A DNA stretch of 64,000 nt from a virus, in IMG/VR virus record IMGVR_UViG_3300021438_000010, positions 34,622-98,621 of that record; one strand, written 5' to 3'. The notes beneath the pieces are model-generated. The model was not told the origin of the DNA. It ran no database searches and was given only the letters and a program-made list of their open reading frames with translations. Shown piece by piece: positions 34,994 through 58,041 of the stretch; within the stretch, counting starts at the first letter, position 1; every line of letters begins with the position of its first letter. Position numbers and translations under genes: made by a program.

Positions 34994-35080
34994 CGGAGCA
35001 AATAGGATTCGAACCTATGGACCAAATTAATGATCGTCGGTTTAGTAAACCGGTGCATTAGACCGCTCTGCCATTGCTCC
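34994..35080 (-). tRNA. tRNA-Ser(ACT)
   Basis: GGAGCAA/TTGCTCC acceptor, G73, long variable arm, GTTCGAATC T-loop, anticodon loop TTACTAA; CCA not encoded. Confidence 0.85.
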
Positions 35081-35998: not shown

Positions 35999-36050
35999 AT
36001 ATTTCTCCTTCAATGTGTTATACACAAAAATGGAGACGGGTTGTTTTTAG

Positions 36051-36402
36051 TGGAGGCGGGCAGAGTCGAACTGCCGTCCAGAATAATTTCAATATAAACC
36101 TCTACATCCTTAGTTAATTGTTATCGCACAACTAACAAAACTAACAGAGTTATCTGTGTCAGATTGAGTACAATCATCATTCCTATTTATGTTTGGTAGG
36201 ACTACCATATCCGATTATCGGAGTCAGCATGATTGGGCAATACGGTTCATGCTACCGCACTCTTACCTAACTAGGTCAGGCAGCGAGAGCGAGAGTCGAA
36301 ACTTCGCCAATTAACATTTCAATCGACTTTTATACTGGCCGGTCGATTAACCAGTGGATGCCATCTATATCTACGTTTACCTGTCGAAACCTTTACGCCC
36401 CC
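36051..36402 (-). ncRNA. ssrA: tmRNA
   Basis: 5' GGGGGCG pairs with 3' CGCCTCC-A (G3:U70 Ala determinant); GTTCGACT T-loop; PK1 stems ACTGG/CCAGT and AATCGAC/GTCGATT; tag ORF 36308-36276 GEVSTLALAA*. Confidence 0.93.
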
Positions 36403-47341: not shown

Positions 47342-48488
47342 AAATTCTCCTTAATTATAGAAATTAAAATCAATCATAACTTAACGAAAAGATCACCTTT
47401 GGGTTTGATCCAAGGGCTAATTTTCGACAACTTTACCATTTTATTGATTCGCCCTCTATGATCTTTGTGGCGACCAATGATATGGATTTCTCCCTCAATA
47501 TCCTTTTGAGTCCAATTATAGTTATTGATGATGCTTTCTGGATCTACATGATCATCACCATAGATTTCACCTTGAACATGAAACTTTAACACTTTGTCAA
47601 ATATCTTAGCCATGATACACCTCTCTTTGTGAATAATTAAACAACTGATTTAGCTTTGCGGGAAAATTCTGCTCCTTTTCCCACTACAGATTCTACAATA
47701 TGATCTTCTAAAACTTCTGGACAGTATTTATTGATTTCTGCTTGTAGAGTATCAATTGGATAATTGATTTTCTCCTTAAAGAAGTAATCTTTAAATTCTT
47801 CCAAAACTTCTAGAGTATCCATTCTGCTGGTAATATAATCTGTATACCTTCTAACTACATAAGCCTTATTATCTTCGGTAATTGTCATTATCCGTTTCAT
47901 AATTAGTGCCTCCCCTTAGTTAGAGTTGCTGGACTTTTCATGTCCTCCCAATTATCCACAAGTACATCCGGTGCTTCGTGTTTGATTTCTGCTTCTAATG
48001 CTGCATCTGATTCTTTATCTTTCTCAGTCTCTAGATAGTCTCTAAGCCTATCTTTAATCTCCATGAAATCCAAAGAACCTAAGATATGGTCGATATACTT
48101 ACGTTGTATTTCGACTCTGTTCTTCTCTGTTAAAACACGATTTCTCATAAATCACCTCATAGAAAAAGTTATTGAACATCTTTCTATGATTCCTTTGTTC
48201 TCCGTAGTTCCACCACGGCTAACTCTGGCTTCGTAGCAGATCAGCAGTTTCCTGCCGCATCTAAACTATTATAGCCCATTGTCCTAACAGCACACACTGA
48301 TTTTTTCTATTCTAGTTGACCCTTATATTCTAATTTAGGGATCATATAGTCATCATCTTGTGTTATTTTTACAATCTCAATTTTCATTATGCAATCTGTA
48401 ATATCGCCATATTTTGACAGCATATTTTGTATACTGTTTAACAATTTATTAGGATCAATATTTTTATTTAGTCTAACGTAAATCATAG

Positions 48489-48560
48489 TAGCCCCAAGAG
48501 GAATCGAACCTCTAACTAGACTTTAGAAGAGTCCTGTTATCTCCATTTAACTATGGGGCC
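48489..48560 (-). tRNA. tRNA-Arg(TCT)
   Basis: GGCCCCA/TGGGGCT acceptor; GGACT-CTTCTAA-AGTCT anticodon arm; GTTCGATTC; promoter TTGACA-17-TATAAT at 48593-48621. Confidence 0.92.
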
Positions 48561-48631
48561 AAATTAAAACTTAAAACGTTTTGGTGTATTGTATTATAGC
48601 GTCTACCTTATGGAATGTCAAGGAGTTAATC

Positions 48632-49090
48632 GTGAATCTCAAACATCATTATACAAAAGAAGTATTATCAAAAATTTGTGCGGAATCTTATAGTTATAGA
48701 CAATGTTTAGAAAAAATGAATATAGTCCCAGCAGGGGGTAACTATGCTTGTCTTAAAAAACATATTGAATTGCATAATATTGACATCTCTCATTTTACAT
48801 TACAAGGATGGAATAAAGGAAAAAAATTTGGTCCAAAACGCCCAATAAAAGATTATCTTTCTAATAAAGCTGGAATACAGAGTTGGAAACTGAAACGTAG
48901 GCTCATAAAAGAAAATATTCTTGAACATAAATGCAATAATTGTAAACAAAAAACTTGGTTTAATCAACTTATTCCAATTGAATTACATCATAAAGATGGT
49001 AATCATTTGAATAATGAACTGTCAAATTTAGAGTTATTGTGTCCTAATTGTCATGCTTTAACTGATAACTATCGTGCTAAAAATAAATAG
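48632..49090 (+). CDS. free-standing HNH endonuclease
   Basis: CNNC, IELHHKDGNHLNN.LSNLELLCPNCH; GTG start after AGGAG. Confidence 0.88.
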   Translation: MNLKHHYTKEVLSKICAESYSYRQCLEKMNIVPAGGNYACLKKHIELHNIDISHFTLQGWNKGKKFGPKRPIKDYLSNKAGIQSWKLKRRLIKENILEHKCNNCKQKTWFNQLIPIELHHKDGNHLNNELSNLELLCPNCHALTDNYRAKNK

Positions 49091-49356
49091 GAGTAGTCGG
49101 ATTCGAACCGACACTTTAAGGATTTTCTTACTACTATAGTTTTCACTACCATTTCTGTTTGTAGTCTGGACTTTATCTTAACCATAACTTTCGTTTTAGG
49201 TTCCTGCCATCAAGTCTCTACACCTTCCTATTTCTAGGCTTGGCTCGGTATTAGCAGTTAAGCCTTCACCGAATTTGACAGGTTCTACATTAAAAGTTTC
49301 CTTTTATGCACTCAAATTGTATAAGTCCTTTGCCTCTGCCGTTGGGCTATACTCCC
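49088..49356 (-). tRNA. tRNA-Leu(TAA), split by a group I intron (exons 49356-49323 and 49126-49088)
   Basis: Spliced 73-nt cloverleaf: GGGAGTA/TACTCCT acceptor, AAGGA-CTT^AAAA-TCCTT anticodon arm; promoter TTGACA-17-TATGAT at 49371-49399. Confidence 0.9.
49127..49322 (-). mobile_element. group I intron (IC3-like), 196 nt, no ORF
   Basis: Inserted after U34; ends in G; P AAATTCGGTGAA, Q AATACCGAGCCAAGC, R GTAGAGACTTGATGG, S AAGATAAAGTCC; P1 ACTT/GAGT with U:G pair. Confidence 0.9.
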
Positions 49357-51541
49357 GTGTTCACTTCTTCATCATACCACTATCATCGTCCTCTGTCAAG
49401 CAACTTCTTTAGCTCTTCTTTATTTGTGTAAAGTGGTACGGATTGTGTCTCAAAGGGATTAAAATGAAGAGTCATGTTATAATAATCACCTCTACTATTA
49501 ACTTTAACCCATCCCATAGATTGGTATTGAGATAATTTATTTTCAAGGTCTTCGATCTTCTTATGCAAAGAGCGAAGTTCATGTCTTGCATTATTTAATA
49601 CAGTTGGATTATGTTGAACGAAGTATTCATCTCCGTCAATGTGTTCCAAAATATATTCTATGGGATGTGAAAAAGCTTTACTCATTACTGGCAATTCCTC
49701 TTGCAGCAAGATTTAATTCCATTGAAATCCAAGTCAATAGATGGATTGGTATCCTCAGAGTGTGAATACTTAGCCCATGTATTATTAAACTCTTCCTTAT
49801 CAATATCAGCATACTGATCAAGCTTAAATACTTGAATAAATGTATCAAACAATTCTGCAATTCTTCCTTCGTGCAATGTTCTAATACCAAAAAGGGTACT
49901 AGCAATATCATCACGATCCAAACCATTAAGCACCATAGTTGACAGAGTGTTTATTTCTTCAACAGTTGACTGTAGTGCGGTAATCTTATCCTCAAGGTCA
50001 AAACGGTCCATTATGATATCCTCTTTCTATTTCTTGTATTAAAGTCTCATAAAGTAAATCTGTCAAATCGTCTTTTTTTATTAACTGCGGGTAATGCATT
50101 CTAATAGTCTCAGAATAATCATTGTCAAGCACATATTTAGTTGGTGGACTGTAATCAACAGTCGGTATTGTGGAACTAATGATTATTAGTGAGCCTAGTT
50201 TGATCATGTATAACGCCTAGAATACTCGCCCTGTATGTCGCTAATAAAGTCAGGATTGTCAGTAGCATCTGGCCCAAGAATATATTCACTTGGAACATGC
50301 TTATAAACTCCCTTTTGCTTTGCTTCCTCCCAATCAAGGCAACCATATCTACTCCAATAGAGATACTTGAAACCCTCATAACTCTTAGTTTCCATAAGCA
50401 TCTTCTCTACAAGTATGCAAAGCTTTTGCTTTGTTGACTGAGGAATTCTTGTAGAAAGCATATCATTAACAGTGTTCTTAATATGCTCAAGAAACTCTAC
50501 AGATACTTGCTTCCTTTTCTTGTTTGCAATTTTCATTTTATTCCTCCAAATGAGATGAATTAATCGTTATACTGGGAAACCATTCGCCTTCATTGACCTT
50601 AAATTCATCAATATCCGCCTCGTATTCTGTTCCATCTACGAAATCGTAAACATAAGCAACATCCCCATGAATGTTAGGGTGCTTATCAATATATTCTTTC
50701 AATTCGCCCCAAGTCATGATATTATTCCTCTGTGTTGTTGATTGCTAAATACGGAATCCAACCATCTTGCAGTAATTCTGTTATTTCTGCTTCGTGTTCT
50801 TTTCCATCTTCGTAATCATATATTTTAACTTCTTCGTCTAACGTTTCGGTATCTTGATCTGCTATAAACTTCATTAGTTCTCGCCAAGTCATCGTAACTC
50901 CTTTGCGATTGAACGTATTGTACAGTATCGTCTTATCCTTGTCAAGAACTTGAACTTTCTAATTCTTCAAGCTCAACCCTAGATTTAATACTATTATGCC
51001 TATTAGGATCGGCTAGTCCACTGTTAATACGGTTCTGCTTTGTGATATAAAATCCACGATCATCCTTGCAAACTACTTCGTCTGCACCTACTGAAATAGG
51101 TTTATATTTTGACATGTCAACGATCATACTAGAATCGCTGCCATATGGTGTTTTGGTTGTAACGATAGTGCCAGATTCGTGCTGGCGTGGTTTAAATAAT
51201 TTTCTTGCCATGTTCTTGGTCATCCTTTTTTGAAAATGTCATACAATTTAATTCACTATCCCAATATGTATCAATTATGTCATTAGATGCCATTTTTGAC
51301 AAACTAACGCCCAATACCCAATCATGAACTTCAGTAAATATTCTTTGAAGTAGTTTTGTATTTATTAGGTATCTTTCTTCTTTTTCAATAGCAAATTGTT
51401 TAATAATAGAGACTATCTCTTTTGGTTTTATATAATTACTCAAGTCCTCAATTGGAATGCCTCTGTTTTTAGCAACATCTTTGCCTATATACTTTGCTGT
51501 TCTTTTTAAATTCTTAATAGCAACTAATGGATCTTTTTTCA

Positions 51542-52456
51542 TCATACACCTATTAAGTTGTTAGAGTAGCGGGATATAGCGTGATCTTTCATCTTAAGCT
51601 CAAAGTCAAGGTCAAAATCTAGACCGTAAGTATTAAATGTATTATTTGCATAGTCAGAATGCGCCCTAGGATTGTTGCCGGGGCGACTCTCACTGTAGTG
51701 GAAGAGTGGTCTATAACCTCCCCACGTTGCATGGCAAGCCCGTATAGCCTCTTCCTCAGTCAGACCGTCTGGATGACAGGCATGGTGCAAATAGTCGAAA
51801 GTGATTGGTATATTGGTGGCTGGATGGAATATCTCAGTAAGCTCTTTGACACTCCAACAATTTACTTTATCGTCGTTTTCGATAACCAATCTGCTACGAC
51901 AATTGGGATCAAGAAGATTGAAACTGTTAACAAATCTAGCAATAATAGATTCATGATTACCATCTTTATTATGTATGTGTAAATTCATTGGAGATCGGTA
52001 GTCGGCTGGACAACCAATACGGTCCATGAATGAAGAGTAGAAATTAAGTTCTGTGATTGTCTTTTCGACTGCTTTAGTATTGGTTGAAGCGAGGACATTA
52101 AACTCGCTAGGATGACAAGAAATACGAACATTTGTAGAGGCAATAGTTTCCTCTAGAATATCAAAACTGTCTTCAATGTCATCATAATTAGGCAAATCTT
52201 CTAACTCAATGTTAGCTTCATCATATGTTATAAGAGGAAAAAGATCACTACTAATACGGTAAGTAAAGTCATGTCTATGGCAATGCTTAATAATCTCATT
52301 GGTCGCCCACATATTATTAAGTATACGTTCGCCCAGTATTGACAGTGCTTCGTCCCTAGGCAGGCTAGAGAATCGCTTAAACGTCATGGTTTGGAACTTA
52401 ACTGGTTCGTCAAGTTCTTGTAATTGTAGTGATATACAGCAAAGGCCAAACTTCAT
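51542..52456 (-). CDS. uvsE: UV-damage endonuclease
   Basis: YRISSDLFP, RISCHP, LVIENDD, FDYLHH, FHYSES, AHSD, ELKMKD; promoter at 52491-52518. Confidence 0.9.
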   Translation of the reverse strand: MKFGLCCISLQLQELDEPVKFQTMTFKRFSSLPRDEALSILGERILNNMWATNEIIKHCHRHDFTYRISSDLFPLITYDEANIELEDLPNYDDIEDSFDILEETIASTNVRISCHPSEFNVLASTNTKAVEKTITELNFYSSFMDRIGCPADYRSPMNLHIHNKDGNHESIIARFVNSFNLLDPNCRSRLVIENDDKVNCWSVKELTEIFHPATNIPITFDYLHHACHPDGLTEEEAIRACHATWGGYRPLFHYSESRPGNNPRAHSDYANNTFNTYGLDFDLDFELKMKDHAISRYSNNLIGV

Positions 52457-52514: not shown

Positions 52515-53165
52515 TCAACCTTGAGTTTTTCCTTTTGATAAATTGTCAAAAGACCATAATGGTTGTAAATTAGTATAATGCCAAGCTATTTTTAGCTCTG
52601 TTTCAATATCGGCATCATTGAAATTAAAACTACATAACGGTTTTATATGATCTATATGCCATTGTCCATAATTTTCAAATGACATACCTTCTTGAAATTT
52701 AGATTGTAAATGTTCTTTAAATTTTTCTATTGAACAACCAATATACTCAATGGATGATGATTTTTTTTGTTTTCCTTTTAAGCATCCCCATATCCCTCTT
52801 CTTATATTAGATATTATTTTGTGTTTATTTCTATATTCTTTTTTATATTTATTATACCAATCCTTATGTGATTTTCTATAACTTGATGTTCTTATTAAGA
52901 TATTTTCTTTATTTTTGATATAATATTCTTGTGTTTTTAATTTTATGATATTTTTGTTTTTTTGGGAATAATTTTTGTGGTATTCTTGTATGGAGTTTTT
53001 ATTTTTTTCTCTGTATGATTTTTGTTGTTCTTTATATTTTCCTGTATATTTTTTAGATTTTTGTCTGCAACAATTCTTGCAATTGGATCTAGTGTATTTA
53101 CCATTTTTATTGAACATAGAAATATCTAATTCATAATTACAACATTTACATATTTTAGTTTGCAT
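52515..53165 (-). CDS. HNH endonuclease
   Basis: CKCC zinc finger, K/Y-rich linker, WHIDHIKP...HYTNLQPLW..DNLSKG. Confidence 0.85.
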   Translation of the reverse strand: MQTKICKCCNYELDISMFNKNGKYTRSNCKNCCRQKSKKYTGKYKEQQKSYREKNKNSIQEYHKNYSQKNKNIIKLKTQEYYIKNKENILIRTSSYRKSHKDWYNKYKKEYRNKHKIISNIRRGIWGCLKGKQKKSSSIEYIGCSIEKFKEHLQSKFQEGMSFENYGQWHIDHIKPLCSFNFNDADIETELKIAWHYTNLQPLWSFDNLSKGKTQG

Positions 53166-57414: not shown

Positions 57415-57965
57415 GCTTGGCCTCTCTTACCTCTACAATCTCCCACGATTCCATATGCTCAGTATTTTCATCTGGGTAGTATGGCAAATATGGTAAGAGT
57501 CTAGCACATTTTGCTTCAGCGTCTTTTTTATCTTTACAGTTACGCATAACAATATGTACTGTAATATAGTGATACATATTATGCCCTCTGGTAGTAGTTA
57601 TCGAACACTTCTTGCCACGTTGGAAAATCGTAGTGAGCATCGCCTTCGTTTACACACTCTCCCGTGAGATTATTGTAAACATCATAGAAAGCAACATTCC
57701 TAGTATCCATGTCACGCACAGAATCATAACACGCATACACATCATACTGTACATCGTCCATAACATAGGTGGCTACTCTTTCGTTCATATCATTTCTCCT
57801 TATAAGTTGTATACTTTGCCTCTGAAATGTCGGGGGAATATTCATTACGACATAACGTCTAGAATGATTCCTGTTTACTGATCTTGACTAAGCATACTCC
57901 AAACAAATATTAGTATCATGATTTCTATCAAGCGATCTCCCTATAGTGATGAAACAATATCACAG

Positions 57966-58041
57966 TAGGGCGTGTAGGAGTCGAACCTACCTATGAATAC
58001 CTTATAAGAGTATCGGATGCTACCGGCTTACCTTACGCCCC
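57966..58041 (-). tRNA. tRNA-Ile(TAT)
   Basis: GGGGCGT/ACGCCCT acceptor, ATACT-CTTATAA-GGTAT anticodon arm, GTTCGACTC; atypical D-arm; promoter at 58063-58091. Confidence 0.8.

What the first reader, a model, noticed from the sequence alone, without database searches (positions are those of the whole stretch)
48632..49356. ORF-less group I intron in tRNA-Leu(UAA) abutting a convergent free-standing HNH gene (possible collaborative homing)
Seen in sequence: a 196-nt intron with P/Q/R/S cores sits at U^AA of the anticodon, the same position as the cyanobacterial/plastid trnL(UAA) intron. The HNH gene is on the opposite strand and its stop codon overlaps the tRNA 3' end (49088-49090). Established knowledge: free-standing endonucleases can mobilise adjacent ORF-less introns (collaborative homing, e.g. 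cyanophage S-PM2 psbA). Inference: this HNH targets intron-less tRNA-Leu alleles. The intron could also hide the anticodon loop in the precursor RNA.
Basis: partly seen in the sequence, partly recalled or inferred. Interest (0 to 1): 0.7.

Follow-up and report, generated by a model that had tools for sequence, protein, structure and literature searches.

The report
Phage tRNA-Leu intron with homing nuclease
A lake phage's leucine-tRNA gene is split by a self-splicing-type intron and backed by a selfish DNA-cutting (HNH) gene. Related phages have the same site empty, so the block is a recently moved mobile cassette, of a kind I did not find described for phage tRNA genes in the papers I could search, although this scan has met it many times.

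Summary
A 196-nt group I intron (49127-49322, minus strand; Rfam 67.5 bits) splits a tRNA(UAA) gene (49088-49356) after U34. A 152-aa HNH gene (48632-49090, plus strand) converges on it, and its TAG stop overlaps tRNA positions 71-73.

New here:
- Syntenic relatives carry an uninterrupted tRNA-Leu(UAA) directly followed by tRNA-Arg. They lack exactly the intron and a 527-bp HNH block.
- Against one relative the HNH has dS 0.14, while flanking genes have dS 0.65 to saturated. The cassette was therefore transferred recently.
- The HNH is under purifying selection (dN/dS about 0.1).
- The intron fold shows 32 compensatory pairs.
- The HNH family is tied to tRNA-Leu(UAA) in phages and bacteria. 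Members are free-standing on either side of the gene or encoded inside the intron in several different loops.
- The cassette also carries a conserved outward promoter.
- The spliced tRNA lacks the long variable arm.

Intron and HNH are associated (p 0.001-0.025) but only loosely. Each often occurs without the other.

The cleavage site is untested, so strict "collaborative homing" is only partly supported.

This scan found the same kind of element before on other DNA. I found no published description for phage tRNA genes.

The parts
49088..49356 (-). Split tRNA(UAA) gene. It is 73 nt once spliced, with a 5-nt variable loop, a 3-bp D stem with a Leu-type D loop, G1.U72 and A73.
   Evidence: ARAGORN -i. 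Intron-less alleles of the same shape occur in relatives.
49323..49356 (-). 5' exon (34 nt), ending in U34.
   Evidence: P1 pairing in the Rfam alignment
49127..49322 (-). ORF-less group I intron (196 nt), of the tRNA-Leu 'Leu.3Ug' / IC3-like kind.
   Evidence: Rfam 67.5 bits. 32 of 50 consensus pairs have compensatory changes across 38 relatives. Empty alleles lack exactly these bases.
49088..49126 (-). 3' exon (39 nt). It begins AAAAUCC.
49371..49399 (-). Sigma-70-like promoter TTGACA-17-TATGAT with an upstream TG. It ends 15 nt upstream of the tRNA and is conserved in syntenic relatives.
48632..49090 (+). Free-standing HNH endonuclease gene (152 aa; GTG start; Shine-Dalgarno AAGGAG at 48621-48626). 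It converges on the tRNA, and its stop codon overlaps the tRNA 3' end.
   Evidence: phrog_10822 E 1.2e-38; invariant residues; dN/dS 0.07-0.17; single copy in the record
48593..48621 (-). Outward-facing perfect promoter TTGACA-17-TATAAT, abutting the HNH start and pointing at tRNA-Arg. It is part of the inserted block.
   Evidence: Conserved in 20 of 24 distinct convergent-clade loci and absent from HNH-less alleles.
48567..49364 (.). The whole cassette, about 800 bp. It replaces an 83-nt uninterrupted tRNA-Leu plus a 4-nt spacer of relative L208.
   Evidence: Homology with L208 stops at 49365 and resumes at 48566.
48488..48560 (-). tRNA-Arg(UCU). This is the downstream flank and the right-hand homology for cassette exchange.
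   Evidence: 98.8% identical in L208

Best explanation
This is a composite selfish cassette in the early region of a roughly 150-kb freshwater phage. It has three parts: (1) a tRNA-Leu(UAA)-type gene with its own promoter, split after U34 by a small group I ribozyme; (2) a convergent free-standing HNH homing-endonuclease gene backed onto the tRNA 3' end; and (3) an outward promoter that restarts transcription of the next gene, tRNA-Arg.

Proposed mechanism. In a mixed infection the HNH nicks or cuts the tRNA-Leu(UAA) locus of a phage that lacks it. Repair copies from the cassette-bearing genome, using the conserved promoter on one side and tRNA-Arg on the other as homology. The whole block, including the tRNA body and the intron, then replaces the resident gene. 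The intron splices itself out of the precursor, so the phage keeps a tRNA for its commonest leucine codon.

The intron travels by co-conversion. It probably also shields its allele by splitting the anticodon stem-loop DNA, the only sequence shared by all alleles that this HNH family accompanies.

Shown: the anatomy, the empty sites, the recent transfer, selection on both the HNH and the ribozyme fold, and the family-wide tie to tRNA-Leu(UAA). Inferred: cleavage, where it occurs, protection by the intron, and splicing in vivo.
For: - Anatomy.
- Empty sites: 19 syntenic relatives have an intron-less, HNH-less tRNA-Leu(taa) behind the same promoter. In four of them tRNA-Arg follows 3-26 nt downstream. 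The alignment shows exact absence of the 196-nt intron and of the 527-bp HNH block.
- Recent transfer: against L220 the cassette is 95.2% identical and the flank 79.2%. HNH dS is 0.14, against 0.65 to saturated for six flanking genes.
- Function retained: HNH dN/dS is 0.07-0.17. In the intron, 32 of 50 pairs have compensatory changes.
- Target clue: at least 101 HNH relatives occur in phage contigs, almost all beside tRNA-Leu(taa). They are convergent or co-oriented, and some lie inside its intron in different loops (P1, P5, P6). Ten more are in bacteria, mostly inside tRNA-Leu introns. The convergent free-standing and antisense intron-encoded forms share one clade (SH-aLRT 91).
- Association of intron and HNH: p 0.0012 by locus, 0.025 by distinct allele.
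- HNH life cycle: remnants, frameshifts and truncations occur next to intact introns.
- Need for the tRNA: TTA makes up 38.6% of Leu codons, and this is the only Leu tRNA in the record.
Against: - Cleavage specificity is unknown.
- The intron is not needed for the HNH to persist. Five of 24 distinct convergent HNH genes abut intron-less alleles, and at least one of those (L036), like several co-oriented ones, keeps the GACTTAAAATC core.
- The tendency of HNH-adjacent intron-less alleles to have an altered anticodon stem is not significant (p 0.11-0.15).
- About two thirds of ORF-less tRNA-Leu introns sampled independently lack an intact HNH.
- Intron, exons and HNH are mosaic. Against L011 the identities are 58% (5' exon), 95% (intron), 64% (3' exon) and 78% (HNH). 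The parts have therefore also moved separately.
- No good + strand promoter for the HNH was found.
Confidence: 0.7

Rival explanations
1. Two independent parasites share one address. The HNH recognises and cuts the junction between the tRNA 3' end and its trailer, which its own insertion splits. It therefore needs no intron for immunity. The intron is a separate element of tRNA-Leu(UAA) that spreads by co-conversion or reverse splicing, and it is merely often nearby.
For: - Each element is common without the other.
- The HNH stop codon lies within 0-2 nt of the tRNA 3' end, whether the tRNA body is class I or class II.
- In some HNH-less alleles the leader ATACACCAAAAC(G/C)TTTTAAG follows the tRNA directly. 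In HNH-bearing alleles it lies beyond the HNH and the promoter.
- The exon/intron/HNH identities are mosaic.
Against: - The family is specific to tRNA-Leu(UAA), whose only sequence shared across its very different bodies is the anticodon stem-loop.
- Relatives of 41-58% identity are encoded inside the intron at this site, where homing enzymes normally cut the exon junction.
- Intron and HNH co-occur more often than chance in a sample chosen by a neighbouring gene.
Confidence: 0.2
2. The HNH is kept mainly as a weapon in competition between phages. It damages or excludes markers of co-infecting relatives, as reported for T4 SegB and for an intron endonuclease of phage PhiPA3. Spread of the cassette would then be a by-product.
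For: - The HNH is under strong purifying selection.
- Precedents: PMC2330249, PMC11620839 (abstract) and PMC13096335.
- The cassette brings a tRNA body, a promoter and a leader, so it changes more than the nuclease gene.
Against: Nothing here tests it. The repeated decay and deletion of the HNH beside surviving introns fits a selfish life cycle better than a maintained weapon. This reading does not exclude the main explanation.
Confidence: 0.07
3. The arrangement is a fossil. Intron and HNH were inherited vertically and no longer move, and the HNH is inactive.
For: [quoted passage not shown]
Against: - HNH dS is 0.14, against 0.65 or more for the flanks.
- The closest relatives have empty sites.
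- dN/dS is about 0.1 and the motif residues are intact.
Confidence: 0.03

Closest known systems
[quoted passage not shown]
   Same: The insertion site is identical (CUU/a...g/AAAA, between U34 and A35). The intron is small and ORF-less, with U-1 and omega-G. The same core pattern occurs in at least 120 bacterial contigs, mostly in tRNA-Leu(taa). From memory, it resembles the Azoarcus/Anabaena IC3 core. That resemblance was not tested with a subgroup model.
   Different: It sits in a phage rather than a cell. The host tRNA lacks the long variable arm. It is paired with a homing-endonuclease gene. The best bacterial intron found is only 77.5% identical, against 91-98% for the closest phage relatives (80-95% for the others compared).
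Collaborative (trans) homing: cyanophage S-PM2 psbA intron with free-standing F-CphI (Zeng et al. 2009), and T4 mobE with the nrdB intron (PMC2790892); defined in PMC3984707
   Same: [quoted passage not shown] Relatives of the endonuclease have invaded the intron, which is the outcome that model predicts.
   Different: The host gene is a tRNA, not a protein gene. The nuclease is HNH and convergent, overlapping the gene's 3' end. The defining point, cleavage at the intron insertion site, is untested. The linkage is loose.
Free-standing homing endonucleases in phage tRNA gene clusters: T4 SegB (GIY-YIG; PMC2330249, PMC13096335) and T5 F-TflI/II/IV
   Same: A nuclease gene is lodged between phage tRNA genes, and the tRNA region is inherited preferentially or exchanged. 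At the DNA level the HNH motif region matches HNH genes of phages of about 103-117 kb of Salmonella and other enterobacteria, and of larger phages.
   Different: Those tRNA genes have no intron. SegB belongs to another nuclease family. Here the nuclease is tied to a single tRNA species.
'Enigmatic' tRNA introns of Lak megaphages (10.1101/356790)
   Same: Introns occur in phage tRNA genes and are highly conserved between genomes, with intron-plus and intron-minus variants.
   Different: Those introns were not classed as group I and were not linked to an endonuclease.

Membership tests
Group I intron (Rfam RF00028) | Covariance-model score above the curated threshold | tested here: met
   67.5 bits against a gathering score of 50, with the full model matched (1-253)
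Group I intron (Rfam RF00028) | U at -1 forming a U.G wobble in P1, and G as the last intron base | tested here: met
   U34.G in the Rfam alignment. The intron ends ...GTAAG. Both bases are invariant in 38 relatives.
Group I intron (Rfam RF00028) | Conserved secondary structure maintained by selection | tested here: met
   RNAalifold: 50 pairs, 32 of them with changes on both sides
Group I intron (Rfam RF00028) | Self-splicing | not testable with these tools
   Only a hint. One 58-nt contig in a lake metatranscriptome joins the exons and skips exactly 196 nt. It could equally come from an intron-less allele.
tRNA-Leu(UAA) intron class 'Leu.3Ug' | Insertion between anticodon positions 34 and 35 in the loop CUU/AAAA | tested here: met
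   definition in 10.1101/2020.01.27.920355
Subgroup IC3 | Subgroup-specific core and peripheral helices | not tested
   No subgroup model was available. The resemblance to Azoarcus/Anabaena motifs is from memory only.
HNH (beta-beta-alpha-Me) endonuclease | HNH catalytic motif with two CxxC zinc ligand pairs | tested here: met
   C101, C104, H120, N132, C137, C140 and H141 are invariant in 28 relatives. phrog_10822 E 1.2e-38.
HNH (beta-beta-alpha-Me) endonuclease | Pfam HNH model above its gathering score | tested here: not met
   HNH_3 scores 17.9 bits against a cut-off of 24.8. Foldseek gives only weak HNH hits (EcoKMcrA, E 0.067).
Free-standing homing endonuclease gene | Presence/absence polymorphism at one site among related genomes, with a younger age than the flanks | tested here: met
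Free-standing homing endonuclease gene | Site-specific cleavage of the allele that lacks the gene | not testable with these tools
   Needs the purified protein and DNA substrates.
Collaborative homing | [quoted passage not shown] | not testable with these tools
   Indirect only: members of the family are encoded inside the intron at the same site. The test on the anticodon-stem core is not significant.
Collaborative homing | Co-occurrence of intron and endonuclease | tested here: inconclusive
   Significant in the syntenic sample (p 0.0012 by locus, 0.025 by allele). Yet about 30 of 47 introns lack an intact HNH, and 5 of 24 HNH genes lack the intron.
Canonical bacterial tRNA-Leu (class II) | Long variable arm | tested here: not met
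   The variable loop is 5 nt and the tRNA 73 nt. Related cassettes carry class II bodies of 83-86 nt.
Canonical bacterial tRNA-Leu (class II) | Leu-type D arm (3-bp stem, loop ..GGYAGA), A73 and A15-U48 | tested here: met
   Read from the sequence and compared with class II tRNA-Leu(taa) of relatives. Charging by LeuRS was not tested.

The most novel reading that the evidence does not exclude
The cassette is more than a selfish pair. It acts as an HNH-driven gene-replacement unit that swaps a phage's ordinary tRNA-Leu(UAA) for a version without the variable arm, and it brings its own promoters. The intron serves as the immunity mark against its own and related HNH enzymes. The stripped-down tRNA body may itself be adaptive, for example by escaping host nucleases that cut tRNA variable loops, as Septu does with tRNA-Tyr (PMC13096335).
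Probability: 0.15. Interest if true: 0.75.

Novelty: new variant of a known kind. Interest (0 to 1): 0.55.

Why it matters
A 2014 review stated that every phage group I intron then known sat in a protein gene, despite the many phage tRNA genes (PMC3984707). I found no later description of group I introns with partner nucleases in phage tRNA genes. Only "enigmatic" tRNA introns of Lak phages have been reported (10.1101/356790).

This locus and its relatives show, in natural variants, every stage proposed for the birth of mobile introns:
- the nuclease alone beside the target gene;
- the nuclease beside an ORF-less intron;
- the nuclease inside the intron, in several loops and in both orientations;
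- a decayed nuclease beside a surviving intron.

That makes the collaborative-homing model directly testable with a 152-aa enzyme and short DNA substrates. The locus also shows that homing can swap whole tRNA bodies between phages.

The scan has met this kind of element many times, so this single window adds detail rather than a new class.

Tried and rejected
- The 108-aa ORF just upstream of the tRNA (49383-49709) found no relatives in viral contigs and no Pfam or PHROG family. It was useless for synteny, so the 304-aa endonuclease gene was used instead.
- A PDB sequence search with the HNH found nothing. Foldseek on a good model (pLDDT 87.7) gave only weak HNH hits, so the N-terminal domain stays unassigned.
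- Test of whether HNH-adjacent intron-less alleles have altered anticodon stems: there is a trend but it is not significant. The sequences are also related, so I draw no conclusion.
- RNA evidence: four metatranscriptome runs hold only contigs. Most of the HNH gene had no cover. That says nothing about expression, because the contigs come from relatives and a filter drops records.
- The exon-exon contig in that run and the contig ends at the splice sites are hints only.
- 'The intron hides the anticodon loop': rejected as unsupported, because the spliced tRNA is the exposed, working form.
- G1.U72 as a consequence of the overlapping HNH stop codon: rejected. HNH-less class I alleles have it too.
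- Two alignment calls failed because HNH relatives L068 and L075 contain in-frame stops. I left them out.

Full report
**What is there**

The window is the right-hand 64 kb of a 98.6-kb linear IMG/VR virus record. CheckV estimates the record at about 65% complete, and its G+C is 34.6%.

Rfam's group I intron model matches 49146-49332 on the minus strand at 67.5 bits, against a gathering score of 50. The parts are:
- 5' exon: 49323-49356
- intron: 49127-49322
- 3' exon: 49088-49126

The exon ends in U34, which pairs with G in P1. The intron ends in G. The site CUU/a...g/AAAA is the classical tRNA-Leu site, 'Leu.3Ug' (10.1101/2020.01.27.920355).

On the plus strand, a 152-aa ORF starts with GTG at 48632, preceded by AAGGAG at 48621-48626. 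It ends with TAG at 49088-49090, the complement of tRNA positions 71-73. It is an HNH nuclease:
- phrog_10822 matches at E 1.2e-38.
- CxxC..HH..N..CxxCH residues are invariant in 28 relatives.
- Pfam HNH_3 is below threshold.
- Structural matches are weak.

**The tRNA**

Spliced, it is 73 nt with a 5-nt variable loop, so it lacks the long arm of bacterial tRNA-Leu. It keeps:
- a 3-bp D stem with a ..GGCAGA loop, like the class II tRNA-Leu(taa) genes of related phages;
- A73;
- an A15-U48 pair;
- G1.U72.

Many phage relatives, with and without intron or HNH, share this shape. The phage record has only four tRNAs: Leu-UAA, Arg-UCU, Ile-UAU and Ser-ACU. TTA makes up 38.6% of its leucine codons, so the tRNA is probably needed. 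A promoter, TTGACA-17-TATGAT with an upstream TG, ends 15 nt before the gene.

**The intron is a maintained ribozyme**

Thirty-eight distinct ORF-less relatives from phage tRNA-Leu genes align over the whole length. Of 50 consensus base pairs, 32 show changes on both sides that keep the pair.

The same core pattern occurs in at least 119 viral stretches and at least 120 bacterial stretches. The hosts are mostly tRNA-Leu(taa), but also other tRNAs. DNA matches to this intron family also lie in split capsid genes of marine podoviruses, one of which holds two Rfam-confirmed group I introns. The best bacterial intron found is 77.5% identical to this one. Phage relatives are 80-98% identical.

**Empty sites**

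I used the 304-aa endonuclease gene 3 kb upstream (51542-52456) as a neutral anchor and fetched 73 related loci.
- Nineteen have an intron-less, HNH-less tRNA-Leu(taa) behind the same promoter.
- In L208, L210, L228 and L277, tRNA-Arg follows after 3-26 nt.

L208 lies on a 149.5-kb contig whose flanks are 81-90% identical to the window. Homology with it stops at 49365 and resumes at 48566. The alignment shows that the empty alleles lack exactly the 196-nt intron and a 527-bp block holding the HNH gene and a spacer. Several empty class I alleles (L213, L215-L217, L219, L272) carry the same anticodon stem-loop as the window's spliced tRNA. Natural intron-minus, HNH-minus targets therefore exist.

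**Recent movement**

Against L220 the cassette (49424-48485) is 95.2% identical, but the adjoining genes are only 79.2% identical. Synonymous divergence is 0.14 for the HNH, against 0.65 to saturated for six flanking genes. The cassette was exchanged long after these phages diverged.

The HNH is under purifying selection, with dN/dS of 0.07-0.17 against eight relatives.

**The HNH family and its address**

At least 101 relatives occur in viral contigs. With long introns allowed, almost all lie at a tRNA-Leu(taa) gene. The distinct proteins fall into these arrangements:

| Arrangement | Distinct proteins |
|---|---|
| Convergent on the 3' end of an intron-bearing gene | 19 |
| Convergent on the 3' end of an intron-less gene | 5 |
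| Co-oriented, just upstream of an intron-less gene | 9 |
| Co-oriented, just downstream of an intron-less gene | 4 |
| Inside the intron, sense | 7 |
| Inside the intron, antisense | 4 |

- The intronic copies sit in different loops: near P1, in P5 and in P6. That implies several separate invasions.
- On the protein tree, all convergent free-standing genes and three of the four antisense intronic genes form one clade (SH-aLRT 91). Intron-less cases are nested among intron-bearing ones.
- Ten bacterial loci hold relatives of 45-55% identity, at least eight of them inside tRNA-Leu introns.
- This is the series that the collaborative-homing model predicts (PMC3984707).

**How tight is the link?**

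In the anchor-gene sample, intron and HNH co-occur: 4 loci have both, 0 have the intron only, 2 have the HNH only, and 19 have neither. Fisher's p is 0.0012, or 0.025 on distinct alleles.

In a sample drawn by the intron core alone, about 16 of 47 ORF-less tRNA-Leu introns have an adjacent HNH. Many of the rest keep a 20-30-nt remnant of the HNH 3' end, or a frameshifted or truncated gene. This is the expected decay of a homing gene after fixation, while the intron survives.

Identities are mosaic. Against L011 they are 58% for the 5' exon, 95% for the intron, 64% for the 3' exon and 78% for the HNH. The parts have therefore also moved separately between class I and class II tRNA bodies.

**An extra part: the outward promoter**

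A perfect TTGACA-17-TATAAT promoter on the minus strand (48621-48593) abuts the HNH start and points at tRNA-Arg. The same outward promoter and a leader, ATACACCAAAAC(C/G)TTT(T/G)AAG, follow the HNH in 20 of 24 distinct convergent-clade loci, whatever gene lies downstream. HNH-less alleles lack the promoter. It appears to travel with the HNH and would offset the polar effect of an antisense insertion.

**Expression**

The window's DNA is found in freshwater and lake metagenomes. In four metatranscriptome runs, which are available only as contigs, one 58-nt contig joins the exons and skips exactly 196 nt. It has depth 2.5 and three mismatches to the window. Several other contigs end at the splice sites.

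Intron-less alleles exist as DNA in relatives, and contigs cannot separate RNA from carried-over DNA. This is a hint, not proof of splicing.

**Interpretation**

The best reading is a mobile cassette driven by the HNH. The intron is a passenger by co-conversion and probably also a shield. I give the general model 0.7.

The strict claim is that the enzyme cuts at the intron insertion site and that the intron gives immunity. It rests on indirect evidence only. It also has to accommodate HNH genes that abut intron-less alleles with the same loop core. The test for altered anticodon stems in such alleles is not significant.

The main rival, at 0.2, is that the HNH cuts at the tRNA 3' end/trailer junction, which its own insertion splits, and that the intron is independent.

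**Novelty**

- The intron class is known in bacteria and plastids.
- Free-standing nucleases in phage tRNA clusters are known.
- Collaborative homing is known for protein genes.
- A 2014 review said that no phage intron was known in a tRNA gene.
- A 2018 preprint reported unclassified tRNA introns in Lak phages.
- My searches found nothing on group I introns with HNH partners in phage tRNA genes.
- This scan has already reported the same kind of element on many other genomes, including a near-identical cassette.

I class it as a new variant of a known kind, of moderate interest.

Noticed in passing
window 36048-36402 (-): A complete tmRNA gene (Rfam 109.6 bits) is encoded by the phage.
   Followed up: no
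window 34994-35080 (-) and 57965-58041 (-): The phage carries tRNA-Ser with anticodon ACU and tRNA-Ile with anticodon UAU. Together with Leu-UAA and Arg-UCU, the four phage tRNAs match its A/T-rich codon use (ATA 45.6% of Ile codons, AGA 57.7% of Arg codons).
   Followed up: partly
window 49088-49356 (-); L207, L213, L215-L219, L225, L226, L228, L250, L272: A whole lineage of phage tRNA(UAA) genes has no long variable arm (73-77 nt). They share G1.U72, A73 and a Leu-type D arm. At one syntenic site, close relatives carry either this form or a normal class II tRNA-Leu. Whether LeuRS charges the short form is unknown.
   Followed up: partly
window 51542-52456 (-) and 52515-53165 (-): Two further nuclease genes lie just upstream: a 304-aa endonuclease (phrog_8420, with an HNKDGNHE motif) and an endonuclease VII-like protein (phrog_1035). 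The first has 73 relatives in large phage contigs.
   Followed up: partly
L068-L072, L075: HNH relatives in these loci contain 3-4 in-frame stop codons. L075 has a tRNA with anticodon CUA nearby. These are probably phages with a reassigned stop codon.
   Followed up: no
L004 (Pelagibacter phage HTVC120P), L006 (uncultured phage Deep1-GF2-KM23-C739): DNA similar to this intron lies between the two annotated halves of split capsid genes of marine podoviruses. L006 holds two Rfam-confirmed group I introns (78 and 76.9 bits), while L004 gave no Rfam match at the gathering score. The records annotate the capsid gene as separate pieces.
   Followed up: partly
L087, L091, L108, L110, L125, L155, L159, L166, L082: The same intron core also splits other phage tRNA genes: Arg(UCU), Met(CAU), and tRNAs that ARAGORN calls Pro, 'SeC(tca)' and 'Stop(tta)'. 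The last two may be suppressor tRNAs. Exact splice sites were not checked.
   Followed up: no
L283, L287, L295, L317, L320, L324, L341, L352 (bacterial MAG contigs): Bacterial tRNA-Leu(UAA) introns of 674-742 nt encode HNH proteins 45-55% identical to the phage one. The classical tRNA-Leu intron is usually described as ORF-less.
   Followed up: partly
window 48561-48592 (-); L206, L209, L214, L226, L276: A conserved leader, ATACACCAAAACGTTTTAAG, contains the palindrome AAAACGTTTT. In some HNH-less phages it follows tRNA-Leu directly, and in HNH-bearing ones it follows the outward promoter. Its role is unknown. It could be a processing site, a 5' UTR or part of a nuclease target.
   Followed up: partly
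L225:13063-13137: This intron-less allele has acceptor and T arms identical to the window's tRNA but different D and anticodon stems. The pattern could be a co-conversion patch around the intron site.
   Followed up: no
L003 (LR756501, 735-kb phage) and L005 (Agrobacterium phage Atu_ph07): Two deposited jumbo-phage genomes contain tRNA-Leu(UAA) genes split by 205-nt and 278-nt intervening sequences at this same site. The first matches this window's intron at 80.8% identity, though neither locus reached Rfam's gathering score. The genes are not annotated, and no HNH of this family lies within the 1.5-2 kb fetched on either side.
   Followed up: partly
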